The position numbers were made by a program, and so were the translations under genes. 64,000 nt of DNA, from the NCBI GenBank assembly GCA_963790305.1, contig CAWBOC010000009.1, positions 224,001 to 288,000 on the forward strand, read 5' to 3'. This document shows, in pieces, positions 8,517 through 58,591 of this stretch. Within the stretch, counting starts at the first letter, position 1. Every line of letters begins with the position of its first letter. Source of the DNA: an uncultured Gemmatimonadaceae bacterium. Lineage in GTDB: Bacteria; Gemmatimonadota; Gemmatimonadetes; Gemmatimonadales; Gemmatimonadaceae. Below the pieces are notes generated by a model that had not been told where the DNA came from, made no database searches, and saw nothing but the letters and a program-made list of their open reading frames with translations.

Positions 8517-8547
8517 TCGACCACCTCGACAACCTCGACAGCCTCGA
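8517..8547. repeat. Solo arm of the 9-bp CCTCGA(C)NN tandem repeat family
   Basis: TCGACCA CCTCGACAA CCTCGACAG CCTCGA; same unit as the arrays at 34984 and 45042. Confidence 0.7.
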
Positions 8548-8586
8548 TTTTCGTGACCGGAGGGCCGCTCATTCAGTCCTCTCGGT

Positions 8587-10581
8587 ATGAGCGAGATCGT
8601 CCCACGCAGTCGGCTTCCAGTCAACGGCCAGGTCGTCACCAAGGCCACATCGTCGTTCGCCAAAACGGTGTCGACGCTGGCGGCCCTCGTCTCCGTGTTG
8701 TCGTTCGCGCGCGCGTACGGCGTGATTGGAGATGACGCAGCCCACCTCACGGTGGGAGACATCGGTGCAGTATGGGTCGGCATCGCTCCGCTTGCCGACA
8801 CGGCTGACGCGCTGAACGACACGCTGCAGCTCACGGCGACGATCAAGGACAAGAGCGGAAGCGCCCTCGTCGGCGCCTCCCTCAAGTGGATGAGCGACCA
8901 CCCCGAGATTGCCTCGGTGACGCCGAGCGGCGGGGTCGTCGCGCATGCACCGGGAACGACCACCATCACGGCGACGGTCGGTGGACTGGTCGCACGGTCA
9001 CGGATCGTCGTGCGCCCGCACGTCGCCAACGTCCGCGTCGCCGGCGACAGCGAAATCGTAATGCGCGATGGCGAGCAACGCGCGATCTCGGCGCGCGGCG
9101 TCGATCGCCGCGACTACGTGATTCCGGGCTTGTTCGCGAAATGGCGCACGACCGACAGCGCCATCGTCAGCGTCGATTCGAATGGTTTCGCGACGGCGAT
9201 CCGCCCAGGGCGAGCGATCCTCGAGGCGACCATCAGCGGCGTGCGCACACAGGCCCCGGTAACGGTGCTTCCCACCGCCTTCGCGGTGCGGGTCGCCTCC
9301 GGTGACAGTCAGCGCGCCCCCGCGCGCGCCGCACTGCCGCTCCCAATCGTCATTCGTGTCGTGTCGCGGCACGGCCTCCCGATCCCACAGGCCAAGATTC
9401 GATTTCAGCCAGCGACTGGCGAGGGATCGACCGAACCCGACACGGCTACGACGGATGCCGATGGACGCGCCAAGACGGTGTGGAGGCTTGGTCCCATTCC
9501 GGGGTCACGGCGGCTGCTGGTCATGGCCGAGGGGATAGACAGCGCGCTCATCGTGACCGCGGATGCCGAGCCCGTCGCAGCCGAGACTCGCATCGTGGCG
9601 ATAGACACGGCGCAGCTCGCGGACATCGGGGCGAAGCTTCCCCACCCTGTGGCGATTCGACTGACGGACACATTGGGACGCCCGTTGGCGGACATTCCCG
9701 TCACCTGGGTTCCGCTCGACGGGGGCTCACTTACGCCACTGGCGCCGCGAACCGACTCGCTAGGTGAAGCACGCGTCGAATGGACCCTCTCGAATCGCGC
9801 CGGCACACAACGCCTGCGAGCACAGGTCGGTACAACGCGGGCCGTCCCGCCCATCGTGCTCACCGCGACGGCAAAGGCCGGAGCTGCGTCGACCGCATGG
9901 GTCGTTGGCGGCAACACCCAGACCGGCACCGTCGGGGCGCCACTCTCCAAGAAGGTTGCAATCAAGGTGCTCGACCGCGCCGGCAATCCGGTGCCGAGTG
10001 CCGTGGTGTACTTTGCGCCCGTGCGAGGCTCCGTGGGCGACTCGGCGATCATGGCCGACACGAGTGGCATCGCGCGCGCGGTCTGGACGCTCGACCGCGA
10101 GCCAGGCCCGCACTCGATGTCCGTGCGCGTGGAAGGCGTTCCCCGCCCAGTCATCGTGAACGCGACGGCCCGGTCTGGGGCAGCATCAGCCATCGATCTC
10201 ACGCCGAAGCAGGCGGTGGGAACGCCCGGCAAGCTCCTTGGCGACGGTGTCGAAGCCCGCGTCACCGACGAGTTCGGCAACCCGGTGAAGGGCGCCACCG
10301 TGACCTTCAAGGCGAGCGCCGGAGCGCTCTCGCCGGCGCGCGTCGTCACCGACGACAAGGGCCGCGCCCGCACACGATGGACGCTCGGCCGCGATGCCGT
10401 CGAGCAATCGCTGGTCGCGCGCGTGACCGGGAGCGGCGCCAGCGCGACGCTGGCCGCGCGCGTGTCGATTCCGTCGAAGGCCGGCACGTCATTGACCACA
10501 AAGAAGCCCGCGACCACCGGAAAGACTCCGGCCAAAACGCCGGTCCGCTCGAGCGCCAAGCCGACGAAGCGCTCGCGCTAG
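8587..10581 (+). CDS. Bacterial Ig-like repeat protein (Big_2 plus Big_1/invasin-type repeats)
   Basis: Two W.S.....ASV...G.V.A..PG...ITAT repeats, four V.D..G.P.....V.F/W...TD..G.A...WTL repeats, N-terminal hydrophobic segment, Lys/Thr/Pro-rich tail. Confidence 0.85.
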   Translation: MSEIVPRSRLPVNGQVVTKATSSFAKTVSTLAALVSVLSFARAYGVIGDDAAHLTVGDIGAVWVGIAPLADTADALNDTLQLTATIKDKSGSALVGASLKWMSDHPEIASVTPSGGVVAHAPGTTTITATVGGLVARSRIVVRPHVANVRVAGDSEIVMRDGEQRAISARGVDRRDYVIPGLFAKWRTTDSAIVSVDSNGFATAIRPGRAILEATISGVRTQAPVTVLPTAFAVRVASGDSQRAPARAALPLPIVIRVVSRHGLPIPQAKIRFQPATGEGSTEPDTATTDADGRAKTVWRLGPIPGSRRLLVMAEGIDSALIVTADAEPVAAETRIVAIDTAQLADIGAKLPHPVAIRLTDTLGRPLADIPVTWVPLDGGSLTPLAPRTDSLGEARVEWTLSNRAGTQRLRAQVGTTRAVPPIVLTATAKAGAASTAWVVGGNTQTGTVGAPLSKKVAIKVLDRAGNPVPSAVVYFAPVRGSVGDSAIMADTSGIARAVWTLDREPGPHSMSVRVEGVPRPVIVNATARSGAASAIDLTPKQAVGTPGKLLGDGVEARVTDEFGNPVKGATVTFKASAGALSPARVVTDDKGRARTRWTLGRDAVEQSLVARVTGSGASATLAARVSIPSKAGTSLTTKKPATTGKTPAKTPVRSSAKPTKRSR

Positions 10582-10623
10582 AGCGGCTCGCCAAGCTCCC
10601 CGGTCGTGCTCCGAACTCGGCCG

Positions 10624-15003: not shown

Positions 15004-15010
15004 GGGCGAC

Positions 15011-15078
15011 TACGGAATGCGGAATGCGGAAGTCCGTGATGGAGCGACCTTACGAACTTCCGCATTCCGCATTCCGTA
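15011..15078. repeat. Palindrome of 7-bp (GCGGAAT) tandem units
   Basis: Perfect 23-bp inverted repeat TACGGAATGCGGAATGCGGAAGT (15011-15033) / 15056-15078. Confidence 0.92.
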
Positions 15079-15102
15079 TTCGGCCCCTTATCTTCCCTCC
15101 CC

Positions 15103-23185: not shown

Positions 23186-23233
23186 TTGGGCCTCTCCATG
23201 ATGAAGCGCTCCGGCATCTCGACCCCTTGTAAA

Positions 23234-23343
23234 GGTGCCGTCCCGGGACTCGAACCCGGGGACGGGGTTCCGGCGCCCTTGGCGCTACGCGGGAGTCGAA
23301 CCCGCTGCGCCGGCCTTCCCCTGGAAACCAGCTCCACGGCACC
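23234..23343 (-). ncRNA. Putative tRNA-like/Y-RNA-like structured RNA with two T-arms
   Basis: Terminal stem GGUGCCGU/ACGGCACC; T-arms GCGGG-UUCGACU-CCCGC and CCCGGG-UUCGAGU-CCCGGG; internal helix CCGGCGC/GCGCCGG; fully intergenic. Confidence 0.7.
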
Positions 23344-23349
23344 GCTACG

Positions 23350-23355
23350 AATCTA
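23350..23355 (-). promoter_or_regulatory. Putative -10 box for the tRNA-like RNA
   Basis: TAGATT separated by 6 nt from the first G of the terminal stem; -35 match is weak (CTGCGA). Confidence 0.5.
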
Positions 23356-27709: not shown

Positions 27710-28345
27710 TCATTGCGACCACTGGCGGACGACGACGCGCGCCGGTCGCAGCAGCTGGCCGCCGAACCGGTAGCCTGGCTGGAAGACCTGAGACACGACG
27801 TGGTCGTCCTCGGGCGCCAACGCCGGCTCGGTCGCGACCGCTTCGTGCACCGACGGATCGAACGTCTGGTTGACCGGATCGATCAGCTCGAGACCGGCGG
27901 CCCCGAGCGACTTGAGCAGCTTCTTCGCCACGAGATCGACGCCCTCGATCACCGAGCGTGCGTCGGTGGACGCCGGATCGACCGCGGTGACGCGCCCCAG
28001 ATCGTCGAGTGAATCGACGATGTGCTTGAGGAGCTCACCCTGCGCGCGCGCCCCGCTTTCTGCGCGCTCGCGTGTAGTCCGCTTGCGATAGTTGTCGAAC
28101 TCGGCAGCGAGGCGCAGGTACTTGTCGCGAAGCTCGGCGACCGCGCGGTCGGACTCGCCGATGACGCGCGTGTCCGCCTCGCTATCCTCGTCTTCGGCGT
28201 CGGCGCTGGACTTGGATGCGTTCGGAGCATCCGCATCGTCAGGGACCCCGTCCCCCTGAGGAGCGGCGCTCGCCGCCACCTCATCATTGCGCTGCTTTTG
28301 CTCGCGCGCCGTCTTGTCGGCGCCCGATTTCACGTCATCTCGCAC
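27710..28345 (-). CDS. grpE: Nucleotide exchange factor GrpE
   Basis: YLRLAAEFDNYRKR, FDPSVHEAV, GY....LLRPARVVV; GTG start with GAGG upstream. Confidence 0.95.
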   Translation of the reverse strand: MRDDVKSGADKTAREQKQRNDEVAASAAPQGDGVPDDADAPNASKSSADAEDEDSEADTRVIGESDRAVAELRDKYLRLAAEFDNYRKRTTRERAESGARAQGELLKHIVDSLDDLGRVTAVDPASTDARSVIEGVDLVAKKLLKSLGAAGLELIDPVNQTFDPSVHEAVATEPALAPEDDHVVSQVFQPGYRFGGQLLRPARVVVRQWSQ

Positions 28346-28451
28346 GGTAGACCTCGTTTCGTTGCCAAGCCCGCGTCGCCGGCCCGAGCACGACGCGTAC
28401 CTCAATAACATCGCTTCCGAGACTGGGACGGGCAACTGCCGGGCCGGTCGC

Positions 28452-29705: not shown

Positions 29706-29711
29706 GGCGAG

Positions 29712-29803
29712 GGCGCTAAAGGCGCTAGGGGCGCTAAGGGCGCTGGAAGTGCCAAAGGCGCGTGCCGTTCAGCGCCCCTAGCGCCTCTCGCGCCTCTAGC
29801 GCT
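29712..29803. repeat. Palindrome of 9-bp GGCGCTRRR tandem units filling the pgsA-cinA gap
   Basis: GGCGCTAAA GGCGCTAGG GGCGCTAAG GGCGCTGGA... versus AGCGCC CCTAGCGCC TCTCGCGCC TCTAGCGCT; the last unit contains the pgsA stop. Confidence 0.85.
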
Positions 29804-30524: not shown

Positions 30525-30578
30525 TGGCGCGGAACGCGAAGGATCAGGCTCCTACGAACCTGCGCAAGCGGCGTGCGA

Positions 30579-31256: not shown

Positions 31257-31271
31257 GGCCGTTCCCTCTCC

Positions 31272-32987: not shown

Positions 32988-33063
32988 AATGCAGAATGCG
33001 GATTGCGGAATGCGGAAATGCGTTGGGGGACCATTCGAATCCGCATTCCGCATCCCGCATTCT
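32988..33063. repeat. Palindrome of 7-bp (AATGCGG) tandem units
   Basis: AATGCAG AATGCGG ATTGCGG AATGCGG versus AATCCGCATTCCGCATCCCGCATTCT; same unit as 15011-15078. Confidence 0.88.
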
Positions 33064-34983: not shown

Positions 34984-35063
34984 GGTTGTCGAGGTCGTCG
35001 AGGTGATCGAGGAGAGGCAAGGACGTTCCTCGATCACCTCGACACCCTCGACCACCTCGATCA
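34984..35063. repeat. Palindrome of 9-bp TCGAGGTNN tandem units
   Basis: GGTTGTCGA GGTCGTCGA GGTGATCGA GGA versus TCC TCGATCACC TCGACACCC TCGACCACC TCGATCA; ends in the ltaE stop codon. Confidence 0.88.
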
Positions 35064-37358: not shown

Positions 37359-37404
37359 GCGTTAGGCGCGACGGCGGCCGGGCGCCCGTTGGGCCGGCCG
37401 CCGC

Positions 37405-37899: not shown

Positions 37900-37911
37900 G
37901 TGTGCGCTCTC

Positions 37912-39381
37912 CTAGCGCCGCTTTTTCGCCTTCGGTTCTTCCTTTTTCGCCTTCGTGGGCGGGGCGCTCACGGAACGCTTCTCGGGCCGCGCGGCCCCAT
38001 CCGCACCGTTGGATCCCATCAGGCGCGACAGCTCGCCACGCAGCTCGCCCGTGGACGTTCCGAGCAGCTTTGCCGACCGCTCCATGTCCCCTCCGGTGGA
38101 AGCGAAGGTACGGAGGATCAGCTGCCTCTTCGCGTCAGCAAGGGACGAGCCGACAGGAACGCTCACCACCGCCGGCACCTCACCGCTCGCCCGCAGGTGC
38201 CGGGGCACGATGTCGGCGGCGCCAATCGTCGAGCTGCGCGACATAATGACCGCCCGCTCGACCGCATTCTTCAGCTCCCGCACGTTGCCCGGCCAATTGT
38301 ACGACAGGATCCATTCCCAGGCGGCATCGTCGAAGCTGGTGACCTTCTTGTTGTTCTGGCGGGAGAATCGAATCAGGAACTCGTTCGCGAGGAGCTTGAT
38401 GTCCCCCACGCGCTCACGCAGCGGCGGGAGATAGATGGGTACGACGGCCAGGCGGTAGTACAGGTCTTCCCGAAGCTCGCCGTCAGCCAGGGCCTTCTCG
38501 AGATCCTTGTTCGTCGCCGCCACCACGCGGATGTCGACGCTGATCTCCTTCTTGCCGCCAAGGCGTCGCACTTGCCGTGACTCCAGCGAGCGCAGGAGCT
38601 TCACCTGGATGTCGGTGGGCATCTCGGCGACTTCGTCGAGAAAGATCGTGCCGCCGTGCGCGAGCTCGAAGGCGCCCTGCTTCTCGTTCGTGCTTCCGGT
38701 GAAGGCACCCTTCTCGTGGCCGAACAGCTCGTTCTCGAGGATGTCCTTCGGCAGCGCGGCGCAGTTGAGCGCGAAGAATGGACCCTTCTCGCGGTCGCTC
38801 TTGTTGTGCAGCGCACGCGCAACGAGCTCCTTGCCCGTGCCCGACTCGCCGAGGATGATGACGCTGGCAGTCAATGGCGCCACCGCCTCGATGAGCTGGT
38901 ACACCGAGCGCATCTGCTCCGACTGTCCAGTGAGCTCGCCGTAATGCGTGAGATTGGCGAGCTCGCTCGTCAACGCACGATTGGTCTGCTTCACCACGAA
39001 CTTGTCGACCGCCTTCGGGATGAGAGCCTTCAGGCGGTTGAGCTTTTCGCTGTTCAGCGGCTTCTCAATGTAGTCGTAGGCGCCCTGCCGCATCGCCTGC
39101 ACGGCGGAATCGACCGTCGCCTGGCCGGTGATGATGATGCACTCGGTGTGGATCTCACGCTGCTGCATCTCCTTGAGCAGCGCGAGTCCGTCGAGCTTCG
39201 GCATCTTGAGGTCGGCCAGGATGACGCCGTACGCGTCATTCGACAGACGCTCCAGCGCTTTCTGGCCATCGACGGCGACGTCGACGGCGTACCCCTCGTC
39301 GGAGAGGATCGCGCTCAACCCATCGGTGATCGCACGCTCATCGTCGGCGATCAGAATCTTCGCTGGCTGCTTCGTGGTCAT
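37912..39381 (-). CDS. Sigma54-dependent response regulator (NtrC/AtoC family)
   Basis: REC domain (ADDE, DLKMP), GESGTGKE, ELFGHEKGAFTG, FLDEV, WPGNVREL, HTH. Confidence 0.95.
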   Translation of the reverse strand: MTTKQPAKILIADDERAITDGLSAILSDEGYAVDVAVDGQKALERLSNDAYGVILADLKMPKLDGLALLKEMQQREIHTECIIITGQATVDSAVQAMRQGAYDYIEKPLNSEKLNRLKALIPKAVDKFVVKQTNRALTSELANLTHYGELTGQSEQMRSVYQLIEAVAPLTASVIILGESGTGKELVARALHNKSDREKGPFFALNCAALPKDILENELFGHEKGAFTGSTNEKQGAFELAHGGTIFLDEVAEMPTDIQVKLLRSLESRQVRRLGGKKEISVDIRVVAATNKDLEKALADGELREDLYYRLAVVPIYLPPLRERVGDIKLLANEFLIRFSRQNNKKVTSFDDAAWEWILSYNWPGNVRELKNAVERAVIMSRSSTIGAADIVPRHLRASGEVPAVVSVPVGSSLADAKRQLILRTFASTGGDMERSAKLLGTSTGELRGELSRLMGSNGADGAARPEKRSVSAPPTKAKKEEPKAKKRR

Positions 39382-39968
39382 TCTGTCTCGGCACTGCTGC
39401 GCGTTCGCGCAGGAAAGAGCAACGTCAGACCGGACGGCTCCGGCTGAAGCCGAACGTCGACGGGTAGTTTCGGGTTGACGCGTGGACCTGCGAACCGGGC
39501 GAGGACACGATCACCATTCCCGGAAATATGCACTCGAATCGCGACTCCCGGGCCCAGCATGTGGTCGAGTGTCGCCGCTAGCGCGGCTCTGGCGTCGTCC
39601 GCGGCCATGTCGATACCCGTGGACCCCTCGCTAAGGTCCAGAGAGACGCTGCCACCTTCCGCGCTGGCGAGCGCATCGTACAACGTGATCACAGGTCCTG
39701 CCAACACCGCCAGATCGCTCCGCGCCGGTCGGGCCAGGGCCAGCAGCGCGTCGATCAGCCTGGAGGCGCGTTCGAGCTCACCCGCCGCCGCCGTCGCGAA
39801 CGGCAGAACGGCGGCCGGCTCGACCGTTTGCCGCGTGCACCGTGACCGGACCACCTCGAGGTTGACGGCAACGGCATTCAGGGGATTCCTGATCTCATGC
39901 GCGACTCGCCCCGACAAATGCTGCAGTGCCCTCAACCATTCGTTGGACGAAGTGCCGTCCTCCCTCAT
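39378..39968 (-). CDS. Short HisKA-domain protein with degenerate ATPase domain
   Basis: H-box VAHEIRNPLNAV; no recognisable N, G1 or G2 boxes; 196 aa with no sensor domain. Confidence 0.75.
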   Translation of the reverse strand: MREDGTSSNEWLRALQHLSGRVAHEIRNPLNAVAVNLEVVRSRCTRQTVEPAAVLPFATAAAGELERASRLIDALLALARPARSDLAVLAGPVITLYDALASAEGGSVSLDLSEGSTGIDMAADDARAALAATLDHMLGPGVAIRVHISGNGDRVLARFAGPRVNPKLPVDVRLQPEPSGLTLLFPARTRSSAETE

Positions 39969-41392
39969 TCGCCGGCATCGGGGTCATCCGGAGCCGCGAC
40001 CACCGCGGGCGTCAGGCCATCCGGCGCACGCCAATGTTGCTGCGCCGGCGACACCCACTTCTTCACCAGGTCAGCCGTGCCCACGACCGCCAGCTGCTCG
40101 AAGAGGAACGCGAACTTCTCGTCGTACACACGCCCGAGCGTCCCGCGAACGGAGTCCGGCAAGTCCCACAGCTCGCGCTTGAACGGCCCCAGCGCCTTCT
40201 TGCGGGTCTTGTAGTAGAACTGGTCGGCGGAATCCTTCGGCTTGCGCTCGTCCGCGGCATTTTCGTCGAGCCACTTGTAGATCTTCTCCCGCATGTTGGC
40301 CGGGATATGATCGTACATGAGGTTCTGGAAGTTGGTAGCGAGGTGAATCTCGCAGGCACCGACCCGTGGAAACGCATTGAAGGCATCGTCAGGCAGCGTG
40401 GATGCGCCATGCTGGACGGCGCCGGCGAGCCCGTATTCCTTCTCCGAGACTCGCGAAAGCTCCTCGAGCGCCTCGAGATCGAGCTTCACGTCGGCCATCT
40501 TGCCGTCAGGTAGCACGACGCCCCCATGCGACGTCCCCGTCTGCACGCTGATTTTGGAGAGGCCGACCGCTTTCTTTCCAAGGCGTTCCCGCAGGGTGCG
40601 GTTGTAGCCCTCCATGAACGCGCGCAGCTCATGCACGTTCGAGTTGTGGCCGCCGACCTCGCCGATCTCGCCGCCGACCGAGATCGTCACGTCGTCGGGC
40701 TCGATCTCGCGGATGTACGACGTGATCTCCACCGCCTGCTCGTAGTTGAGACGTTGCTGCTCGTCGAGGGACGGCTTCGAGATGTCGACCAGCGTCGACG
40801 TGTCGACGTCAATGTTGTAGAAGCCGGCCGTCACCGCCTCGAGAGCCAGCTGCTTCACCGCAGCGACCTCGCCGTCCGGGTCCACCACGAACTTCTTCGC
40901 GTTGACCTGGAAGTGGTCACCCTGAATGAACACGGGACCGCGGAACCCTTCGCGCAACGCCGCCCCCAGAATGACGGCAACGTACTCCGAGGGTCGCTGA
41001 TCGGTGTAGGCGATCTCCGAGCGGGCGATCTCGAGAATGAACGCGCCGGCGTTGAGGCGAATCGCCGTGCGGAATATCGAGCGCGCGGTATCGTACGTCA
41101 TGCCGCGCACGTTCATCGCCGGAACGGTCCAGCCGCCGGGCGCGTCCCCGCGCCCGCGGGCGAGGTAGAGGTCGTTGATCGACGCGGCCTGCACGCCGAC
41201 TTCCTGTCCGATCTCCCAGATGAGCCACCGCGCGTGGTCGCGCGCCTGCCCGTGACCGAAGACCGCCTCTCGCACCAGCGCATCCATCGCCGGCGACGCG
41301 AGATCCGCTTCGCGCGTTACGACGACGTGACCATTATCGACGCGAACAGCTCCCCCCACCGTCTGGGAGGTCCGGGTCGCTTGACTATGCAT
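39965..41392 (-). CDS. fba: Class II fructose-bisphosphate aldolase family protein
   Basis: VPAMN, QGDH, GEIGEVGG, GTSHGG, VQHGASTLP; located in the glycolytic operon. Confidence 0.85.
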   Translation of the reverse strand: MHSQATRTSQTVGGAVRVDNGHVVVTREADLASPAMDALVREAVFGHGQARDHARWLIWEIGQEVGVQAASINDLYLARGRGDAPGGWTVPAMNVRGMTYDTARSIFRTAIRLNAGAFILEIARSEIAYTDQRPSEYVAVILGAALREGFRGPVFIQGDHFQVNAKKFVVDPDGEVAAVKQLALEAVTAGFYNIDVDTSTLVDISKPSLDEQQRLNYEQAVEITSYIREIEPDDVTISVGGEIGEVGGHNSNVHELRAFMEGYNRTLRERLGKKAVGLSKISVQTGTSHGGVVLPDGKMADVKLDLEALEELSRVSEKEYGLAGAVQHGASTLPDDAFNAFPRVGACEIHLATNFQNLMYDHIPANMREKIYKWLDENAADERKPKDSADQFYYKTRKKALGPFKRELWDLPDSVRGTLGRVYDEKFAFLFEQLAVVGTADLVKKWVSPAQQHWRAPDGLTPAVVAAPDDPDAGE

Positions 41393-41461
41393 CCATCCTC
41401 CGAAGAAGTGCCGTGCCTGACGTACTTTGGGTGGGTCGGGTGCGTTCGGCAAGGGCGATGC

Positions 41462-42847
41462 TCACACTACCGATCTTGGATCCGGCTTGGGCAGCGCGTC
41501 CCATTCCTTTCGCGCCTCGCGTGCGTCCGGGCGCCCGAGCATCCCGTAGGTGTAGCGCTTCCCGAGCTCGACTCCGGGCTGATCGAGCGGATTCACCTCA
41601 TACAGCGCCCCGGCGATGACGGTGGCGATCGCGAGCATCATGAGCATCGACCCCACGTGCCAGGCGTCGAGCGTCTCACAGGTGATCGTCATGTTGGGAC
41701 GCCCCCGCCGCGCCAGGGCCCCAGCGGTCGCCTGACGCTCGACATCGAGCAGCTCGCCCAGCGAGTGGCCGCCGAGATACGCGAGCTCGGGGATGTCGGG
41801 GTGCAGCTTCGGAATCGCAATGTCGGTCGCGCGCGAGCCGACGGCAATGAAAGTCACGGTCTTGTCGAGCGGACCTTCCATGAACAGCTGAACCTGGGAA
41901 TGCTGATCGGTCGCGCCGAGCGCAGGAATCGGCGTCGGTCCAACACTGGTTCCGTCAGCTTTGGTCTTCCCCAGACTCTCCGCCCACAGCTGCACGAACC
42001 AGTCGCCCACGTCGCGCAGGTTGTCGCTGTATGGCATGATGACGTGCGTGCGCAAGCCGTGTTGTGTGTCGGCGAGCCACTGGAGCATGGCGTACGTCGC
42101 CGCCGGGTTCTTCCGCAGCTCGCGCGCGCCGCATCGCTCGGCCATGTCCCCGGCGCCGGCCATCAACGCCTGGATGTCGATGCCGATCAGTGCCGCCGGG
42201 AGCAGTCCCACCGCCGACAGTACACTGAATCGACCACCGACATTGGGGGGGATGTCGAGCGCGGGAATCGATTCTTCGCGCGCAATGCGACGGAGCGATC
42301 CCTTCTCGGGATCGGTGACGAACACGAGGTGGCGTTGGAACTTGTCACCCAGTGCTTCGATGAGCCGTCCGCGCACGACGAGATACTGCGCCATCGTCTC
42401 GGCGGTGCCACCCGACTTCGACACGACGAGAAACAGCGTTCGGCCGACCTCAATGCGGCCGAGCAACTCCGCCATGGTTACCGGGTCGACGTTCTCCAAC
42501 ACGTGGAGTCGCGGGAAGTAATCGCGCGCCTCGTCGCCAAGCTCGTTCCACCGGATGGATCGGAGCGCCGAGCGAAGCGCGATGGGCCCGAGCGCCGAGC
42601 CGCCGATCCCGAGCACGACAATGTCGCTGAACGCCTGCCCCGCGCCCTCCGCAAACTGGCGGATCTGGTCGGTGCTTTGGTGGGCAGCGGGGAGATCGAG
42701 AAACCCCAGCTCGCCGCGCCCCCGCCGCTCGTCGAATACCGCCATCGCGCGCGCGAACGCATCGCCCGCGCTCTCAATGGCGGCGAGGGGAATCCCGCCG
42801 GGCACGTTCTCGGCGAGCATGTTCGTATAGTCGAGCCGCAGCGCCAT
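41462..42847 (-). CDS. pgi: Glucose-6-phosphate isomerase
   Basis: GIGGSALG, SKSGGTAET, VGGRFSVLS, QLWAESLGK, DQHSQ, DQPGVELGK. Confidence 0.97.
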   Translation of the reverse strand: MALRLDYTNMLAENVPGGIPLAAIESAGDAFARAMAVFDERRGRGELGFLDLPAAHQSTDQIRQFAEGAGQAFSDIVVLGIGGSALGPIALRSALRSIRWNELGDEARDYFPRLHVLENVDPVTMAELLGRIEVGRTLFLVVSKSGGTAETMAQYLVVRGRLIEALGDKFQRHLVFVTDPEKGSLRRIAREESIPALDIPPNVGGRFSVLSAVGLLPAALIGIDIQALMAGAGDMAERCGARELRKNPAATYAMLQWLADTQHGLRTHVIMPYSDNLRDVGDWFVQLWAESLGKTKADGTSVGPTPIPALGATDQHSQVQLFMEGPLDKTVTFIAVGSRATDIAIPKLHPDIPELAYLGGHSLGELLDVERQATAGALARRGRPNMTITCETLDAWHVGSMLMMLAIATVIAGALYEVNPLDQPGVELGKRYTYGMLGRPDAREARKEWDALPKPDPRSVV

Positions 42848-42848
42848 G

Positions 42849-43628
42849 TCAGTCGATCCGAATGGTGAGACCGTCGAACGCCGGCGCGATCCCGGCCGGC
42901 AGCTCCGCCTCGAGGTCGGCGTGCCGGTTGTCGTGCGTGAGATGCGTGAGGTACGTGCGCTCCGCGCCAAGCTCGCGCGCGACGCGCACCGCCTCGGGGA
43001 TGCTCAAGTGCGTCGGATGCTCGGTGCGAAAGAGTGCGTTGATGACGAGCACCCGCGCGCCACGCATCTGCTTCATCGCAGGCTCCGGGACGCTCTTCGC
43101 GTCGGTGATATACGCAAGCGGGCCAATGCGATACCCGTAGACCGAGAACGGGCCGTGCGGCACCGCGACAGCCATCACGTGCACACCGCCCAGCTCCACC
43201 GACTCGCCATCCCCCAACGCTCTCGCGTGGCCCTCGGGCTTCGAGGTTCCCGGTAGCGGGCGAATGGTATCGTCGAAGATGTAGGGGAACCTCCGCGCGA
43301 GGCGATCGAGCGTGTCGCGGGCACCGTAGATCGGCAGCGCGGCGCCGCGGCGAACGGAGATGGCGCGAAGATCATCAATGCCATGGGTATGATCCGCGTG
43401 ATCGTGCGTGTAGAACACGGCATCGACGCGATCAATGTCGGCGGCGATGAGCTGTACACGCAGCTCCGGTGGCGTATCGATGAGGATCTTCGTCCCGTCG
43501 TCCGTCTCGACCAGGGCGCCAACGCGGGTGCGTCGATCGCGAGGATCTGGAGAGCGGCATACCTCGCAGTGACATCCGAGCTGGGGCACGCCGAAGCTCG
43601 TGCCCGTGCCGAGGAAGGTCAGCTTCAC
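42849..43628 (-). CDS. MBL-fold metallo-hydrolase (PhnP-like)
   Basis: LGTGTSFGVP..GC.C.VC, THDHADHTHG, AYITD, THLTH. Confidence 0.9.
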   Translation of the reverse strand: MKLTFLGTGTSFGVPQLGCHCEVCRSPDPRDRRTRVGALVETDDGTKILIDTPPELRVQLIAADIDRVDAVFYTHDHADHTHGIDDLRAISVRRGAALPIYGARDTLDRLARRFPYIFDDTIRPLPGTSKPEGHARALGDGESVELGGVHVMAVAVPHGPFSVYGYRIGPLAYITDAKSVPEPAMKQMRGARVLVINALFRTEHPTHLSIPEAVRVARELGAERTYLTHLTHDNRHADLEAELPAGIAPAFDGLTIRID

Positions 43629-45097
43629 ACCACTTCGACCTTCATCATGTTCGTGCTGCCAGGCTGATCGAAGGGCACCCCCGCCGTGACGACGACTCGC
43701 TCGTTCGGCTTGGCCAGCCCGCGCGCACGCGCCGCGGTGAGCGCATGTCCCACCATCGCGGTGTAGTTCCCCGCGCTCGGCACGAGCTCGGGCTGCACGC
43801 CCCACACCAGGGCCAGCTGACGGTACGTGCGCTCGACGTCGGTCGCGGCCAGGATGGGAACCTCCGGACGGTGTGATGCAACCACACGCGCGCTGAATCC
43901 ACTTTTGGTGAAGACGATGATGAGCGGCACCGCGAGCATGCGAACCGCCGCGACGGTCGCGGCGGCAATGGCGTCCTCGGTCTCCACGGGCCCGTCGGAC
44001 CGGCGCAGCCGTGCGTGATCGGTCACGCGCTGTTTCGGCGCGGGATGACTCTCGATCTCGGTGATGATGCGGCTCATCGCGCGCACGGCGAGCTCGGGAT
44101 ACTGCCCGGTCGCTGTCTCCGCCGACAGCATCACGGCGTCCGTGCCGTCGAGGATCGCATTCGCGACGTCGCTCGCCTCGGCGCGCGTGGGCCGCGGATT
44201 CTCGATCATCGACTCGAGCATCTGCGTGGCGGTGATCACCGGTCGGCCGGCGGCGTTGGCCAGCGCGATGATGCGCTTCTGCGCAATGGGCACCTCCTCG
44301 AACGGCAGCTCCACGCCGAGATCGCCGCGCGCAACCATTACGGCGTCGGCGACACGCAGGATGCTGTCAATGTTCGCGAGCGCGGTGTCCTTCTCGATCT
44401 TCGCGACGACGAGCATGTGCGGCGGAACGAGCCGACGGAGCCCCTCAATGTCCTTCGCCCGTCGCACGAACGAGAGCGCGAGGTAATCGACTTCCTGGCC
44501 CACCGCGAACTCGATGTCGGCGCGATCCTTCTCCGTGATCGATGGCGCGGAGACGAGCACGCCGGGAAGGTTGATTCCCTTGTGGCTCGACATGGGCCCG
44601 CCGTGGACGACGCGAGCCACAACGCGCGGCGGATGCACCTCGAGCACGACGAGGTCGAGCAGGCCGTCGTTGATGAGGATGCGATCTCCGACCTTTACAT
44701 CGCTCGCCAGCTCGCCGTACGTGACGGGAATGTCCTCCCCTTCCGCAACCGCGTCGGGGGCCAGCACGATGTCGTGCCCCTCGACCAGCATGACGGGCGC
44801 GGGAAGGTCTCCGATGCGTATGCGAGGTCCCTGGAGATCTCCCAGGATGGCGATGGGGCGGCCGATCTCCTTCGCGATCGCACGCACCGCGCTGATGACT
44901 TCCTCATGCTGCTCGTGCGTGCCATGCGAGAAGTTGATACGGGCGACGTTCATCCCGGCCGTGATGAGGGCGCGCAATACCGTGGGCGAGGACGACGCAG
45001 GCCCGATCGTGCAGACGATCTTTGTGCGGGCGGTATGACGAGAGGTTGTCGAGGTGGTCGAGGTCGTCGAGGGTGTCGAGGTCGCTACCGTGCTCAT
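43625..45097 (-). CDS. pyk: Pyruvate kinase
   Basis: RTKIVCTIGPAS, RINFSHG, DLQGPRIR, AKIE, MVARGDLGVE, ATQMLESM, PTRAEASDVANA. Confidence 0.97.
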   Translation of the reverse strand: MSTVATSTPSTTSTTSTTSRHTARTKIVCTIGPASSSPTVLRALITAGMNVARINFSHGTHEQHEEVISAVRAIAKEIGRPIAILGDLQGPRIRIGDLPAPVMLVEGHDIVLAPDAVAEGEDIPVTYGELASDVKVGDRILINDGLLDLVVLEVHPPRVVARVVHGGPMSSHKGINLPGVLVSAPSITEKDRADIEFAVGQEVDYLALSFVRRAKDIEGLRRLVPPHMLVVAKIEKDTALANIDSILRVADAVMVARGDLGVELPFEEVPIAQKRIIALANAAGRPVITATQMLESMIENPRPTRAEASDVANAILDGTDAVMLSAETATGQYPELAVRAMSRIITEIESHPAPKQRVTDHARLRRSDGPVETEDAIAAATVAAVRMLAVPLIIVFTKSGFSARVVASHRPEVPILAATDVERTYRQLALVWGVQPELVPSAGNYTAMVGHALTAARARGLAKPNERVVVTAGVPFDQPGSTNMMKVEVV

Positions 45098-45155
45098 GCG
45101 ATCCTCCCCTCGATCACCTCGACAGCCTCGACGACGTCGACACCCTCGAGCCTCA
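45042..45155. repeat. Palindrome of 9-bp TCGAGGTNN tandem units spanning the tal stop and pyk start
   Basis: GAGGTTGTC GAGGTGGTC GAGGTCGTC GAGGGTGTC GAGG versus CCTCGATCA CCTCGACAG CCTCGACGA CGTCGACAC CCTCGA. Confidence 0.88.
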
Positions 45156-46274
45156 CCTCCCCACCACCTTCTGCTCGAGTCGCTCCAGCAATCCCTCGAA
45201 GGACTTCTGGAAGGAGGCCAGACCATCGACCAGGAGCTTGTCGGTCACGGAGGCGAGTGAGATGCCCAATGACTCCAGGTCCGCGATTGCGCGCCGCTCG
45301 CGGTCGATGTCCGCGTCGACCGTGCGCAGGACGATGCCGTGGTCGCGGAATGCATCGATCGTTTGCGGTGGCATCGTATCGACGGTGTCGGGGCCGATGA
45401 GCGCTTCCACGTACATCACGTCCCGGTACGCTGGATTCTTGGTGCTGGTGCTCGCCCAGAGCGGGCGCTGCACCCGCGCACCCTTGGCGACCAGCGCGTC
45501 CCACCGCGCGCCCGAGAAGCGCTCCTGAAAGAGCGCGTAGGCGAGCTTCGCGTTGGCGATCGCAATGCGCCCGCGCAGCGCACGCAGGCGCTCAGCGTCG
45601 GCCGAGGACATGTTCGCCACCCGCGCATCGATACGCTTGTCGACTTCGGTATCGACGCGGCTCACGAAGAAGCTCGCGACCGATGCGATTCGATCGACCG
45701 GCTTGCCGGTGCGGACGCGGTCCTCGAGACCGCCCAGGTAGGCCTCGATGATGTCGGCGTACGCGTCGAGCGCGAAGAGCAGCGTGATGTTGACGTTGAT
45801 GCCCTCGGCAATGAGGCGGCGTGCGGCGATCGCGCCGTCGCGCGTGCCTGGCACCTTGATCATCACATTCGGGCGGTCGACCAGAGTCCACAGCCGACGC
45901 GCCTCGGTGAGCGTCTCCTCGACGTCATGCGCCGCGCCCGGCGACACCTCGATCGACACGAAGCCATCCGCATGACCACTGGTTTCGTATACCTGCCGGA
46001 ATACGTCGCAGGCATCGCGCACATCGTCGGTGGCGATCATCTCGAACAGCTCCCACGATGTGTGGGTGGCAGGCGCAGCCGCGAGCTGATCGTCGTACGC
46101 GTCGGAGTCGGTGAGCGCCTTCTCGAAGATCGTCGGATTTGACGTCATACCGGTCAACGCATCACGCTCGATGCGCTGGGAGAGCTCGCCGCCGCGGAGG
46201 AGGGACCGGTCGATGTAGTCGAGCCAGATCGATTGTCCGGCATCGTGAAGCGCGTGCAGCGGTGTCTTCGGCAT
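45153..46274 (-). CDS. tal: Transaldolase
   Basis: GQSIWLD, GMTSNPTIF, VSIEVSP, NVMIKVPGT, NVNITLLF, SFFVSRVD, LWASTSTK. Confidence 0.96.
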   Translation of the reverse strand: MPKTPLHALHDAGQSIWLDYIDRSLLRGGELSQRIERDALTGMTSNPTIFEKALTDSDAYDDQLAAAPATHTSWELFEMIATDDVRDACDVFRQVYETSGHADGFVSIEVSPGAAHDVEETLTEARRLWTLVDRPNVMIKVPGTRDGAIAARRLIAEGINVNITLLFALDAYADIIEAYLGGLEDRVRTGKPVDRIASVASFFVSRVDTEVDKRIDARVANMSSADAERLRALRGRIAIANAKLAYALFQERFSGARWDALVAKGARVQRPLWASTSTKNPAYRDVMYVEALIGPDTVDTMPPQTIDAFRDHGIVLRTVDADIDRERRAIADLESLGISLASVTDKLLVDGLASFQKSFEGLLERLEQKVVGR

Positions 46275-51731: not shown

Positions 51732-52340
51732 GTGAGGTCCGCGTACGGCCTTGGGGTCGGCGCAGGCGGGGGCGTGCGCGGGCTAATGATCGGCGGCGTT
51801 GGCGTAGGCAGCGGCGGACGCCTCAGCGGAATCACCATCGCAGGCGTTGGCGCGGGGTCGGGCGGAGGGGTCGACGGCCTCACGATCGCCGGGCTTGGCG
51901 TTGGAAGCGGCGGCCAAGTCCGAGGGATCAGCATCGCGGGGCTTGGCGTCGGCGCGGGCGGGGGCGTCTCCGGCGTCAGCATCGCCGGGCTTGGAATCGG
52001 CTCGGGCGGAGAGATCCGCGGGCTGGCGATCGCTGGAGGCGGCGTGGGATCTCCGAAGATCTCCGGGATCGTGATCACCGGCATCGGGGCCGGCACGCTC
52101 GACTTCAACGGGGGCGTGATCGCGCCTTTCTACTTTCGTATCGAGAAAGAGGGGTCGATGCGAGGCGTATCGGTGAGCGGGTTCAATCGCCTGAGTGGCG
52201 TGCAGCACGGGCTCACGATCGGCGTGCTCAACATCGCCGAAGAGCTGCGTGGTGTGCAGATCGGCCTCATCAACATCGCGCGTCGCAACCCGAAAGGGCG
52301 GCGCGTGCTACCGGTCGCGAACTGGGGCTCGCGCGACTGA
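51732..52340 (+). CDS. Gly-rich 15-aa repeat protein (LA_2272-like), probably 5'-truncated
   Basis: About seven G(L/I/V)xIAG(L/V)GVG(S/A)GGxx repeats and GVQIGLINIA...LPVANW; no signal peptide or RBS. Confidence 0.6.
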   Translation: MRSAYGLGVGAGGGVRGLMIGGVGVGSGGRLSGITIAGVGAGSGGGVDGLTIAGLGVGSGGQVRGISIAGLGVGAGGGVSGVSIAGLGIGSGGEIRGLAIAGGGVGSPKISGIVITGIGAGTLDFNGGVIAPFYFRIEKEGSMRGVSVSGFNRLSGVQHGLTIGVLNIAEELRGVQIGLINIARRNPKGRRVLPVANWGSRD

Positions 52341-55667: not shown

Positions 55668-56915
55668 ATGCCCGGCACAATGCCCTCCATCGACCGCGAT
55701 GCGCTCACGCGTTTGAAAGCAGGGGACGAGCAAGCGCTGCGACGCATCTTCGACGACCACTACTCCACGCTGACCCAGGAAGCGGCCACCGTGCTCGAAG
55801 ATCCGGGCGGCGCGCCGCGGGTCGTCGAAAGCGTGTTCGTCCGCGTCTGGGACGAGCGAACGGAGTTCGAGTCGCCGGAAGCGCTGGAGTCGTTCCTTCA
55901 CAAGGCGACCCGCGAAGCAGCCGCTCGCGCGCAGAGTCGTCGCGCCTCGCTGCATCGATTCGAGTCGCACGAAGGTGTGCACGCCCACGGCAACTCGCAC
56001 CGCAAGGAGCCAACGACCGCGGGCGAAGCGTGGTCGCACGTGGAGCACACCATTTACGCGCGCTCGCATCGCGGCGAGACGCTGCATCAAATGGCCGATC
56101 ACTCGCGCCACGCCACCGCCGAGCACGTCGGCGGAATGACGAAGCGGAAACCCTGGCTCTGGCCCGCCATCGGACTGGCGGCCGTCGCGCTCGTGATCCT
56201 CACGCCGATCGCGCTCATCGATCGGGCGAGCGAGGACCGCGCGGTGACCGCGGGAATTCGCTCGCGAGAAGCGCGCACGCTCGTCGCGCGCCAAGGCAGC
56301 CGTACCGCCATTCGTCTCGGCGACGGCACCGACGTCACGCTCGGCGGCGACTCGCGACTCACTGTACCGCCCGGATTCGGCGACCGGCTGCGCGGTGTTG
56401 GATTGGAAGGCACCGGGACGTTCGTCGTTGCACCGGAACAGCCGCTCGTGTTCCAGGTGCGCACGAAGGACGTGGCCATCAAGGCCCTCGGCACCACCTT
56501 CACTGTCCGCGCGTATCCCGATGAGAACTTCGTCGCCGTGCGCGTGAAGGAAGGACAGGTCACCGTGCAGGGGCAACAGGACCCGCGCACGCTGACCGCG
56601 GGTCAGGCCGTGATGGTCGACGCCCAGGGCGTCATCCGCGAGCCCACTCAGCAGGAGATCGACGAAGCGCTCGCCTGGTCCGACGGCCGCCTGGTGATGA
56701 ACCAGAAACCAATGCGAGAAGCACTGCAGCATCTCCAGCGGTGGTACGCGCTTGGTCTCGTCGTCCGCGACTCCTCGATCCTGGACCGCCCCGTGTCCAT
56801 GAACGTGTCGCTCGACTCCTCGCGCAACGCGATCGCGGCGCTGGAGCAGAGCGCGAACGTGAAATTCGGATACGAGGGTCGTGTTCGCGTGTTGAGGGAT
56901 GGGGTGAAGAAATAA
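55668..56915 (+). CDS. FecR-family anti-sigma protein with N-terminal ECF sigma region-2-like domain
   Basis: N-terminal LKAGDEQALRRIFDDHYSTL...VVESVFVRVW; TM segment; FecR motifs LGDGTDVTL, LEG...F.V, LGTTFTV, VKEGQV; C-terminal AWSDGRLV...LQRWY. Confidence 0.85.
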   Translation: MPGTMPSIDRDALTRLKAGDEQALRRIFDDHYSTLTQEAATVLEDPGGAPRVVESVFVRVWDERTEFESPEALESFLHKATREAAARAQSRRASLHRFESHEGVHAHGNSHRKEPTTAGEAWSHVEHTIYARSHRGETLHQMADHSRHATAEHVGGMTKRKPWLWPAIGLAAVALVILTPIALIDRASEDRAVTAGIRSREARTLVARQGSRTAIRLGDGTDVTLGGDSRLTVPPGFGDRLRGVGLEGTGTFVVAPEQPLVFQVRTKDVAIKALGTTFTVRAYPDENFVAVRVKEGQVTVQGQQDPRTLTAGQAVMVDAQGVIREPTQQEIDEALAWSDGRLVMNQKPMREALQHLQRWYALGLVVRDSSILDRPVSMNVSLDSSRNAIAALEQSANVKFGYEGRVRVLRDGVKK

Positions 56916-57001
56916 GGGTGCTCAGGGTGCTCAAGGTGCTCAGGGTGCTCAGGGTTCACCTCCCTGAGCACCCTGAGCACACTGAGCACCCCGAGCACCC
57001 T
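56915..57001. repeat. Palindrome of 9-bp AGGGTGCTC tandem units
   Basis: About 4.5 units on each arm (56915-56954 / 56962-57001) with a 7-nt loop; begins in the fecR stop and ends 5 nt before the ackA ATG. Confidence 0.93.
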
Positions 57002-57006
57002 TCCTT

Positions 57007-58251
57007 ATGAACGTCCTCGTCCTCAACGTCGGCTCCTCCTCACTCAAGTTCGAGCTCATCGGGACTGACGCCGAGCGCATCGAGGCGAACGCGGATACGC
57101 GACTCGCCGGCGGCGCGGTGGAGCGGATTGGCGGGGAGGCCGTGTTGTCGCTCGACGTGAAGGGACGTGGCGGGCAGCGGTCGGTCGCGCCGCTGCGGAA
57201 CCTTGCCACCGCCGTCGAGCACGTGGCCGCGTGGCTGGTGAGCGAGGAGGCGGACGCGGGGATTGCCACGCTCGCTGAGATCGAAGCGGTGGGCCATCGT
57301 GTCGTGCATGGCGGCGAGGATTTCGCGCGATCGCAGCGCATCGACGAGGCCGTTCTCAAGGCGCTCGATGAGCTGGTCGAGCTCGCCCCGCTGCACAACC
57401 CGCATAACATTGCCGGCATCCGCGCCGCGACGCGCGTGTTCGGACCCGGGGTTCCACAGGTGGCGGTGTTCGACACCGCGTTCCATCACTCGCTCCCCGA
57501 GGTCGCGTACCTGTATGGCCTACCCTACCAGCTGTATCGCCGGTACAAGGTGCGGCGGTACGGATTCCACGGGACCTCGCATCGGTACGTCGCGCACCGC
57601 TACCGTCAGCTCACGGGTCGCTCGCGCGAGCGCACCCGACTCATCACACTCCACCTCGGCAACGGCGCGTCGGCGTGCGCGATTCTCGGTGGGGAATCGA
57701 TCGACACGTCAATGGGATTTACACCGCTCGAGGGGCTCGTCATGGGCACGCGGTCGGGAGATCTGGATCCCGCGATTCTCGACTTCGTGGCCAGCAAGGA
57801 AGGGCTGACGCTCTCGGAGATGGAGACGCTGCTCAACAAGCAGTCGGGGCTGCTCGGTCTCTCGGGTCTCACGCCCGACATGCGCGAGCTGCTCAACGAG
57901 ATCGAGGAGCACGACGACCGGCGCGCGCGGCTGGCGGTGGAGGTGTTCTGCTATCGCATCCGCAAATACATCGGCGCGTACCTGGCCGTGCTCGACGGTG
58001 CCGATGCGATCGTGTTCGCCGGTGGAATCGGGGAGAACGCCGCCGCGATCCGCGCGCGGGTCTGCAGCGGTCTCGAGTGGATGGGAATCAGCGTCGATCC
58101 CGACGCCAATGCCTCGCTCACGACGGGACGCGAGGGGCGATTCAGCAAATCGGACAGCCGGGTCGAGCTCTGGGTGATCCCGACGGACGAGGAGCTGCTG
58201 ATTGCGCGCGATACGTGGAGGGTGGTCACGGGGGCGCCGTTGCGATATTGA
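57007..58251 (+). CDS. ackA: Acetate kinase
   Basis: [64 protein letters not shown]. Confidence 0.97.
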
Positions 58252-58591
58252 AACGGCAAAGATGACAGAATTCAGAACCGCATTGAAGCATCCAGGTTCA
58301 AAGGGGGGACGCGGATTCTGCGGATGCAACGGATACTGCGGATTGCTCCATGCGCCGTGATCCTTCTTAGACAGGAGCCAAAGGGCGGTTGCCTTTTCCT
58401 GCGCGAGGAGAGTTCTCGGCGCCAGGAGCGATCCGCCTGATCCGCGAAATCCGCGAAATCCGCGTCCCCCCTTTGAACCTGGATGCCAGCGTCGCGCACG
58501 TCGTTCGCCACAAACGACCACGGGGAGCCGCCAACTGGCTCCCCGTAGGTTTTGTCGGAATTCCATTCTGAATTCTGTCATCGTTGCCGTT
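58252..58591. mobile_element. Nested inverted-repeat element (MITE/REP-like, non-coding)
   Basis: Outer 26-bp IR 58252-58277 / 58566-58591 (1 mismatch); inner perfect 30-bp IR 58288-58317 / 58457-58486 continuing into 9-bp GCGGATNNN arrays. Mobility is inferred, not shown. Confidence 0.6.
58520..58546. terminator. GC-rich hairpin between convergent genes, probable terminator
   Basis: ACGGGGAGCC-GCCAACT-GGCTCCCCGT followed by AGGTTTT. Confidence 0.6.

What the first reader, a model, noticed from the sequence alone, without database searches (positions are those of the whole stretch)
8517..58486. Family of periodic palindromes: one architecture, five unrelated unit sequences, sited at stop codons
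Seen: hairpins whose arms are 3-5 tandem 7- or 9-bp units in head-to-head orientation at 15011-15078 and 32988-33063 (GCGGAAT), 29712-29803 (GGCGCTRRR), 34984-35063 and 45042-45155 (TCGAGGTNN), 56915-57001 (AGGGTGCTC) and 58288-58486 (GCGGATNNN), plus a solo arm at 8517. Six start within about 8 nt of, or overlap, the upstream stop codon, mostly inside housekeeping operons. In the 9-mers about 6 positions are fixed and about 3 vary. Inference: conserved geometry with different sequences suggests a dedicated generating or recognition mechanism (REP-like mRNA elements, or empty sites of a cargo-carrying element). My unverified recollection is that similar arrays flank four-helix-bundle or GxxExxY genes in other genomes.
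Basis: partly seen in the sequence, partly recalled or inferred. Interest (0 to 1): 0.75.

Follow-up and report, generated by a model that had tools for sequence, protein, structure and literature searches.

The report
Empty mobile repeat-hairpin cassettes between genes
These repeat-built hairpins look like gene-less copies of small mobile DNA cassettes that slot in right behind bacterial genes, and they may explain where the puzzling short tandem repeats of many bacterial genomes come from.

Summary
The arrays are real: 7 periodic palindromes against 0.02 expected. The host is a Gemmatimonadaceae bacterium. At the same gene junctions, relatives carry nothing, the same architecture with another unit, nested copies, or the arms around a small gene. 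That gene is a four-helix-bundle protein (TIGR02436) with 7/8-mer arms or a GxxExxY PD-(D/E)XK-family protein with mostly 9-mer arms, also in other phyla. The same layout bounds a 23S rRNA intervening sequence. Homologous copies, loop included, sit at different junctions, so they spread as units. Best reading: cargo-less, non-autonomous copies of IVS-like cassettes. Corrections: the units are not all unrelated; the 58288 hairpin is nested in a sixth class (58252-58591); one arm probably encodes the pyruvate kinase N-terminus; stop-codon proximity may be survivorship. No mobilising enzyme was identified, and no RNA-strand pairing signal was found. Heptamer arrays and IVSs are each in print; my 10 searches found no paper joining them with these cargo genes.

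The parts
8451..8512 (+). Non-periodic hairpin, probably the inner stem of an element whose left arm is reduced to one TCGAGG unit; follows the stop (8418) of an FtsX/MacB permease gene
   Evidence: remnant reading is inference from similarity to the inner end of the 45042 element
8517..8548 (+). Solo right arm, TCGAGGTNN class (9-mer), upstream of an Ig-domain gene (8587)
15004..15085 (+). 7-mer GCGGAAT element; starts 0 nt after the FtsX-type permease stop (15003), ends 17 nt before the start of a PIG-L family deacetylase gene
29712..29803 (-). 9-mer GGCGCTRRR element between pgsA-like (CDP-alcohol phosphatidyltransferase; last codons and TAG lie inside the first units) and cinA (GTG 6 nt after the arm)
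32988..33063 (-). 7-mer GCGGAAT element, 3 nt after the dnaX stop; ends on a conserved -35-like/17 nt/-10-like motif just before ybaB (ATG 32953)
   Evidence: promoter role is inference (it was below the cut-off of the scan)
34984..35063 (-). 9-mer TCGAGGTNN element overlapping the stop of a threonine-aldolase-family gene (ltaE-like), ahead of the SRP RNA gene (34845-34940)
45042..45152 (-). 9-mer TCGAGGTNN element between transaldolase (stop 45153) and pyruvate kinase
45095..45109 (-). Shine-Dalgarno-like GGGGAGG and ATG in the inner stem and loop of the 45042 hairpin: the only in-frame ATG/GTG/TTG for pyruvate kinase after the transaldolase stop, so the 3' arm would be read as a Thr/Ser-rich N-terminal extension
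   Evidence: translation; L061 has stop and GTG adjacent, no insert; use in vivo is inference
56914..57002 (+). 9-mer AGGGTGCTC element overlapping the fecR-like stop (56915), ending 4 nt before the acetate kinase ATG (57007)
58252..58284 (+).
58288..58486 (+). 9-mer GCGGATNNN element with non-periodic outer stem, nested inside the outer element
   Evidence: same unit class follows a GxxExxY gene in L101
58520..58546 (+). Loop hairpin of the outer element, shared with the copy after dnaJ in L003
58559..58591 (+). Right arm of the outer element; holds the stop (58578) of the convergent ORF

Best explanation
The window's arrays are cargo-less, non-autonomous copies of small cassettes built like 23S rRNA intervening sequences: a G-rich arm of tandem 7-9-mers, optionally one short gene, and the complementary arm. 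SHOWN: full cassettes carry a four-helix-bundle gene (7/8-mer arms) or a GxxExxY gene (mostly 9-mer arms); empty, filled, nested and absent states occur at the same junction in relatives; homologous empty copies occur at different junctions. INFERRED: cassettes enter gene junctions, and persist where they harm neither reading frame nor downstream promoter or start, which is directly behind a stop codon. The cargo is lost by slippage or recombination between repeats, leaving a hairpin that can itself be copied or invaded. Units drift in concert through slippage within an arm plus copying between arms and between loci. In mRNA the stem loops out the insert; a ribosome stopped on the base of the stem could open it and expose the next start, making the insert nearly neutral. 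LEAST CERTAIN (about 0.35): spread is started in trans by a cut at the hairpin, with the GxxExxY PD-(D/E)XK-family protein the best candidate, and completed by recombination. The four-helix-bundle protein has no known catalytic role and would need a partner.
For: Orthologous junction dnaX|ybaB: arrays called in 15 of 59 loci (automatic; about 2 look false, L002 was missed), scattered over the tree; pgsA|cinA 9 of 58. The five members of the window's clade share the position but have different units with both arms changed together. dnaJ|mnmA (35 loci): 8 with gaps of 14 nt or less, empty hairpins (L003, L005, L029), and four-helix-bundle cassettes in opposite orientations (L035, L058) inside one starred clade with empty L048/L073. 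Clean 107-nt presence/absence between L027 and L032, 89% identical. Same element with its loop at different junctions: window 58252 vs L003 15285; L042 4345 vs L023 349 at 84% over 81 nt. Arrays near cargo genes: 13 of 18 on at least one side, 7 of 18 on both, against 19 of 326 (Gemmatirosa) and 6 of 1021 (80 loci) called genes on both sides. A four-helix-bundle ORF within Azospirillum 23S rRNA has inverted heptamer arms. Warrier 2016 (PMC4990558, passages) reports tandem GACAGAT/GACAGAA heptamers in a 23S IVS with RNase III cutting at the first repeat; GACAGAA is in the window's outer arm. Copy variants are mirrored in the partner arm 20 of 74 times against 4.25 expected. The 5' arm is G-rich in 52 of 55.
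Against: No cargo gene lies in any window element, and no mobilising enzyme was identified. No target-site duplication is visible in the one clean indel. Mismatches show no G-U bias to the transcribed strand (43 vs 45), so RNA-level pairing is not shown to be under selection. 5 of 18 cargo genes had no array at the strict threshold (3 of them show inverted arms by eye), and L091-L094 have at most short or weak inverted pairs. Background array density was not measured for the non-Gemmatimonad plasmids, and cyanobacterial DNA is array-rich. Cargo genes are rare beside empty copies: 3 in 490 kb of Gemmatirosa against 38 short-loop pairs. Both cargo copies in the 80 loci are truncated. Mirroring within the window alone is weak (3 of 15 vs 1.0 expected). 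The tree is the quick version.
Confidence: 0.62

Rival explanations
1. Purely mutational origin: polymerase slippage makes a short tandem array and fold-back template switching makes its inverted partner, independently at each junction; no mobility, and cargo genes are simply co-located.
For: Mirrored variants and arm-length variation fit local copying; L041 has an expanded array relative to L055. Rehm 2015 (PMC4692102, Discussion read) cites a slippage hypothesis for heptamer excess.
Against: Non-periodic termini and loops are shared between copies at different junctions and in different genomes; whole-unit indel; fixed polarity 52 of 55; unit length tracks cargo family; the same unit occurs across phyla (L088 vs L087; L085 vs L042).
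Confidence: 0.14
2. Host-selected RNA elements (terminators, 3' stabilisers, RNase III sites or REP-like translation regulators) kept for what they do to the operon; the sequence is free as long as the stem forms.
For: Strong predicted stems (z -6.6 to -19, approximate shuffle); position behind stops; several lie between a stop and a downstream promoter-like motif. REPs within 15 nt of a stop stall ribosomes (PMC12306157, passages).
Against: Most relatives lack them at the same junction (44 of 59; 49 of 58). None of the 9 window hairpins checked is followed by a U-tract. No sense-strand G-U bias. Function does not explain periodicity, nesting or cargo. Secondary effects on expression remain likely.
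Confidence: 0.14
3. REPIN/TIR-type elements moved by an HUH tyrosine transposase (RAYT/TIRYT) encoded elsewhere in the genome.
For: Size, dispersal, nesting, apparent lack of target duplication and position downstream of genes resemble REP/REPIN families (PMC3733652, passages). Only 64 kb of this genome could be seen.
Against: No GTAG/CGTC tag in REP orientation seen at window element ends; a recalled RAYT motif pattern gave no hit in 80 loci, the window, L081 or L087; genes found between arms were four-helix-bundle or GxxExxY. An HUH helper in trans is not excluded.
Confidence: 0.08
4. Assembly artefact.
For: Short repeats can be mis-assembled and the relatives are mostly MAGs.
Against: The same architecture occurs in dozens of independent assemblies and in complete plasmids of cultured strains; copies are imperfect and vary.
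Confidence: 0.01

Closest known systems
23S rRNA intervening sequences (IVS) carrying an S23p / four-helix-bundle ORF (TIGR02436, PF05635; Warrier et al. 2016, PMC4990558)
   Same: Terminal inverted repeats forming a long stem, tandem heptamers in the stem (GACAGAT/GACAGAA), same cargo family, decay of the cargo ORF; an Azospirillum IVS fetched here has the full periodic two-arm layout.
   Different: Window copies lie at mRNA gene junctions, have no ORF, include 9-mer classes tied to another cargo (GxxExxY), nest, and are dispersed; RNase III excision untested.
GGGAATC / GGGGA(C/T)T heptamer arrays of Xanthomonas and Nostoc (Rehm et al. 2015, PMC4692102)
   Same: About four heptamer copies, intergenic, G-rich arm within 50 nt after the stop, 70-75 inverted pairs per Xanthomonas genome; the GGGAATC unit itself occurs at pgsA|cinA in L010. 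Probably the same phenomenon.
   Different: That paper reads them as G-quadruplex formers of unknown role, and no cargo or mobility link appears in the parts I read. Most units here lack G-tracts; 8-, 9- and 11-mers also occur.
TAACTGA heptamer repeats of Beggiatoaceae, Cyanobacteria and Bacteroidetes (MacGregor 2015, PMC4679880); STRR heptamers of cyanobacteria (recalled, not retrieved)
   Same: Short intergenic heptamer arrays inside housekeeping operons, patchy across phyla, mechanism of transfer stated as not evident.
   Different: Described as single direct arrays just upstream of start codons (one inverted case in 170); would correspond to solo arms.
REP / REPIN / TIR elements with RAYT or TIRYT transposases (Di Nocera et al. 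2013, PMC3733652)
   Same: Small dispersed palindromes downstream of genes, sometimes supplying the stop codon; an autonomous form is the same repeat around a gene.
   Different: No GTAG/CGTC tag, arms are periodic, flanked gene is not an HUH transposase.
Integron attC sites (recalled)
   Same: Structure-conserved, sequence-variable imperfect palindromes starting at a stop codon.
   Different: Periodic arms, housekeeping operons, no cassette array or integrase seen; analogy only.

Membership tests
23S rRNA IVS (S23p type) | Located inside an rRNA gene | tested here: not met
   No Rfam hit at gathering score in the window; elements lie between protein genes. Met only by relative L095.
23S rRNA IVS (S23p type) | Terminal inverted repeats forming a long stem, with tandem heptamers | tested here: met
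   GACAGAA in the 58252 arm matches a unit in PMC4990558
23S rRNA IVS (S23p type) | Four-helix-bundle ORF in the loop | tested here: not met
   None in the window; present in relatives L035, L058, L081
23S rRNA IVS (S23p type) | Excised from the transcript by RNase III | not testable with these tools
   needs RNA data or an in vitro assay
REP/REPIN | GTAG or CGTC tetranucleotide at one end of the palindrome | tested here: not met
   Inspection by eye sequences; definition from PMC3733652
REP/REPIN | RAYT (HUH) gene flanked by the same repeat | tested here: inconclusive
   Recalled-motif pattern found none in the window, 80 loci, L081 or L087; rest of the genome unseen
REP/REPIN | Multi-copy, extragenic, downstream of genes | tested here: met
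   55 of 59 intergenic with 86% called coding; median 12 nt from stop
MITE | Target-site duplication | tested here: inconclusive
   None visible in the single clean indel L027/L032; other pairs too diverged
Intrinsic terminator | U-tract after the stem | tested here: not met
   0 of 9 hairpins; none listed at the four array sites inside 28000-46000
G4-forming heptamer SSR (Rehm 2015) | Four runs of three or more G | tested here: not met
   Only the AGGGTGCTC arm approaches this (3 of its 4 full copies plus a partial fifth have GGG); other window units lack G-tracts
CRISPR array | Repeats of 23-47 nt separated by unique spacers | tested here: not met
   Units are contiguous 7-9-mers

The most novel reading that the evidence does not exclude
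A cross-phylum class of minimal mobile cassettes, 'mRNA intervening sequences', with a period code: 7/8-nt arms go with the Avd-like four-helix-bundle protein and 9-nt arms with the GxxExxY PD-(D/E)XK protein. The proteins would recognise the periodic stem rather than a sequence and copy it into gene junctions, by hairpin cleavage or an RNA-templated route using a reverse transcriptase in trans. Empty copies would be the source of the unexplained heptamer arrays of many bacteria, and 23S rRNA IVSs would be the members that landed in rRNA.
Probability: 0.27. Interest if true: 0.9.

Novelty: new variant of a known kind. Interest (0 to 1): 0.7.

Why it matters
It joins three separately reported puzzles: abundant bacterial heptamer arrays of unknown origin, two widespread protein families of unknown function that interrupt conserved operons (TIGR02436, TIGR04256), and the origin of 23S rRNA IVSs. 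It gives each protein a candidate substrate, its own flanking stem, that can be tested in vitro. The elements also remodel operon junctions; here one appears to supply the ribosome-binding site, start codon and N-terminus of pyruvate kinase.

Tried and rejected
Rfam at gathering score and ARAGORN on the window: nothing. DNA searches of plasmids with three window elements to find cargo bracketed by the window's own units: only a Gemmatirosa GCGGAT arm; two searches gave short or coding chance matches, not fetched. Four-helix-bundle search of phages: no match. G-U strand bias test: negative. Target-duplication search in the 22 closest locus pairs: one clean indel. Long-loop pair search in 490 kb of Gemmatirosa, 80 loci and the window found no further cargo family; that filter also missed known cargo cases, so it is insensitive. 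Stop codons in all three frames as the reason for 7-mers: rejected, because GCGGAAT, GAGGAAC and GGGAATC hold no stop. Left arms as Shine-Dalgarno donors: arrays pair with an anti-SD decamer better than shuffled units in 41 of 58 (median -5.8 vs -4.4 kcal/mol); suggestive only. Of the 10 paper searches, searches returned nothing, and searches returned irrelevant lists. Homologue, fold, atlas and complex tools were not used.
Full report
OBSERVATION. All arrays are present as described. A detector for inverted arms with internal period finds 7 in the window; 100 fourth-order Markov simulations give a mean of 0.02 and a maximum of 1. Pfam (68 ORFs) places them at these junctions: FtsX permease|PIG-L deacetylase, pgsA-like|cinA, dnaX|ybaB, ltaE-like|SRP RNA (39.6 bits vs cut-off 40), transaldolase|pyruvate kinase, fecR-like|acetate kinase, and acetate kinase|convergent ORF. 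Short gene names are my labels for the Pfam matches. Arm starts lie 0, -8, 3, -3, 0, -2 and 0 nt from the upstream stop. None of 9 hairpins is followed by a U-tract.

HOST AND RELATIVES. The one genome scan, with the window's MglB, returned the best 80 of 537 confirmed matches: Gemmatimonadota by record title except two titled only 'bacterium', top identity 96% (1.09 Mb). At dnaX|ybaB an automatic call finds arrays in 15 of 59 loci, about two of them doubtful and L002 missed; at pgsA|cinA 9 of 58, mglA|pgsA 6 of 70, ybaB|recR 4 of 65. Carriers are scattered over the tree (quick IQ-TREE, 72 of 81 rows; the careful search did not finish). Many non-carriers have gaps of a few bases or overlapping stop/start. 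In the window's own starred clade all five members have an element at dnaX|ybaB, between the stop and a conserved promoter-like motif, with units GCGGAAT, GAGGAAC, GAGGACT, GCGGATT/GCTGATT and GAGGACC; each change is present in both arms. At pgsA|cinA the same clade shows GGCGCT, GAGGTGCTC, AGGGTCCTC and a 20-nt gap without array. The unit therefore turns over at a fixed site, and the 'unrelated' units are partly one drifting family.

GENERAL ANATOMY. The detector gave 64 hits, merged to 59 elements, in 1.25 Mb (80 loci, window, two Gemmatirosa plasmid stretches that had been chosen for a match, so not a random sample). 55 of 59 are intergenic although 86% of the DNA is called coding by my simple gene caller. 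The 5' arm is G-rich in 52 of 55. In 49 co-directional gaps the median distance is 12 nt to the stop and 45 nt to the next called start (Wilcoxon p=5e-5); 24 of 49 lie within 10 nt of the stop and 10 of 49 within 10 nt of the start. Periods are mostly 7 and 9 (26 hits each), with some 8, 10 and 11. After dropping 5 listed hits (2 in coding DNA, 1 reversed pair, 2 keys of duplicate hits) and those with too few copies, 46 remained. In these, variant bases are mirrored in the partner arm 20 of 74 times against 4.25 expected, but only 3 of 15 against 1.0 in the window; G-U-compatible mismatches do not favour the transcribed strand, 43 vs 45. The second result is against selection for an RNA stem and favours DNA-level copying.

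MOBILITY. The window's outer element shares its first 25 nt exactly, plus loop hairpin and right arm, with an uninterrupted element after dnaJ in L003, a different junction. L042 (after ltaE) and L023 (after dnaX) share arms and loop at 84% over 81 nt; Gemmatirosa holds repeated composites. L027 has a 107-nt element that L032 (89% identical) lacks, with no visible target duplication. Nesting is common (L005, L023, L029, L042).

CARGO. L035 and L058 carry truncated four-helix-bundle ORFs (TIGR02436, 74.5 bits for L035; L058 by tblastn) between inverted arms at dnaJ|mnmA, in opposite orientations. Clade-mates L048 and L073 have 1- and 9-nt gaps, and L029 a nested empty 9-mer element. From plasmid tblastn I fetched 6 of 9 hits, 1 further of 33 and all 7 non-self hits of 8. 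Four-helix-bundle genes of Gemmatirosa, five cyanobacteria and Azospirillum have 7- or 8-mer arms; the Azospirillum one lies in 23S rRNA. GxxExxY genes (TIGR04256; PF13366 PD-(D/E)XK) have 9-mer hairpins in Gemmatirosa, one of them the window's GCGGATNNN class, and clear inverted arms in Bacteroides, Bernardetia and Sphingomonas; Fusobacteria, Treponema, Persicobacter and Prevotella show short, weak or one-sided arms. By a fixed threshold, 13 of 18 cargo genes have an array on at least one side and 7 of 18 on both; background for both sides is 19 of 326 and 6 of 1021 genes, for either side 97 of 326 and 145 of 1021 (no background for the other phyla). No GxxExxY gene had period 7; one four-helix-bundle gene (L082) had 9 along with 7, and one GxxExxY gene (L090) was scored as 8. 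The four-helix-bundle protein matches PDB 2GSC and, below cut-off, the Avd models.

A LOCAL CONSEQUENCE. After the transaldolase stop, the only in-frame ATG/GTG/TTG for pyruvate kinase is at 45097, in the hairpin loop, 5 nt behind a Shine-Dalgarno-like run; the 9-mer arm would be read as Thr/Ser repeats. L061 has stop and GTG adjacent with no insert. An upstream in-frame ATG at 45226 overlaps transaldolase and seems unlikely. This is inference from sequence.

MECHANISM. Shown: architecture, patchy distribution, unit turnover, dispersal of whole units, cargo association. Inferred: insertion at junctions filtered by selection, loss of cargo between repeats (the L081 GxxExxY gene lies between two near-identical hairpins, a ready substrate), concerted drift of units, and near-neutrality in mRNA through ribosome opening of the stem. 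Not shown: the enzyme, RNase III processing, any host function. I put 0.62 on the cassette-remnant reading and about 0.35 on GxxExxY-initiated spread.

LITERATURE. Warrier 2016 (PMC4990558; passages): IVS with S23p ORF, tandem heptamers, RNase III excision, origin unclear. Rehm 2015 (PMC4692102; abstract, passages, Discussion): inverted heptamer pairs near stops, role open. MacGregor 2015 (PMC4679880; abstract, passages). Di Nocera 2013 (PMC3733652; passages) and RepRanger (PMC12306157; passages) for REP definitions. PMC3936711 (passages) notes 23S_rRNA_IVP genes inside cas operons, as in L082. The term GxxExxY occurs in 3 library records, 2 listed; the one I opened mentions it only as a neighbour of an RT. 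Ten searches found no paper linking the arrays to these cargo genes. The library lacks most subscription papers and I opened no supplements, so prior description is not excluded. STRR and attC comparisons are recalled.

VERDICT. A real, widespread feature. It works like an IVS/REPIN-type non-autonomous element but is a member of neither family as defined. New variant of a known kind; interest 0.7.

Noticed in passing
window 23225-23350 (-): tRNA-like element: acceptor-type stem closing several arms, two with T-loop motifs; ARAGORN negative, Rfam only weak matches (17-18 bits), fold z -2.0.
   Followed up: partly
window 34845-34940 (-): Small SRP RNA just under the Rfam gathering score (39.6 vs 40), conserved upstream of dnaX in relatives.
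   Followed up: yes
window 32953-32989 (-): Conserved -35-like/17 nt/-10-like motif ending 7 nt before the ybaB ATG, suggesting a leaderless or near-leaderless transcript.
   Followed up: partly
window 51747-52011: 48/96-bp tandem repeat, GC-rich, in a region where the two ORFs tested had no Pfam match.
   Followed up: no
L068 dnaJ|mnmA gap; L036 after 3342: A different, non-periodic palindrome family beginning GTCATCC, in L068 beside a periodic solo arm.
   Followed up: no
L012 11896-12606: Two ACGGAT-type 9-mer elements with a duplicated flank of about 70 bp at pgsA|cinA.
   Followed up: no
L087 21864, 38315, 42155: An 11-mer class of the same architecture in Gemmatirosa; cargo unknown.
   Followed up: no
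L017, L028, L030 mglA|pgsA: GCTGATA-type arms enclose a promoter-like TAGAAT/TAACAT motif, so the loop can hold a promoter.
   Followed up: no
L081 33754-34130 (-): GxxExxY gene with one frameshift, either decay or sequencing error.
   Followed up: partly
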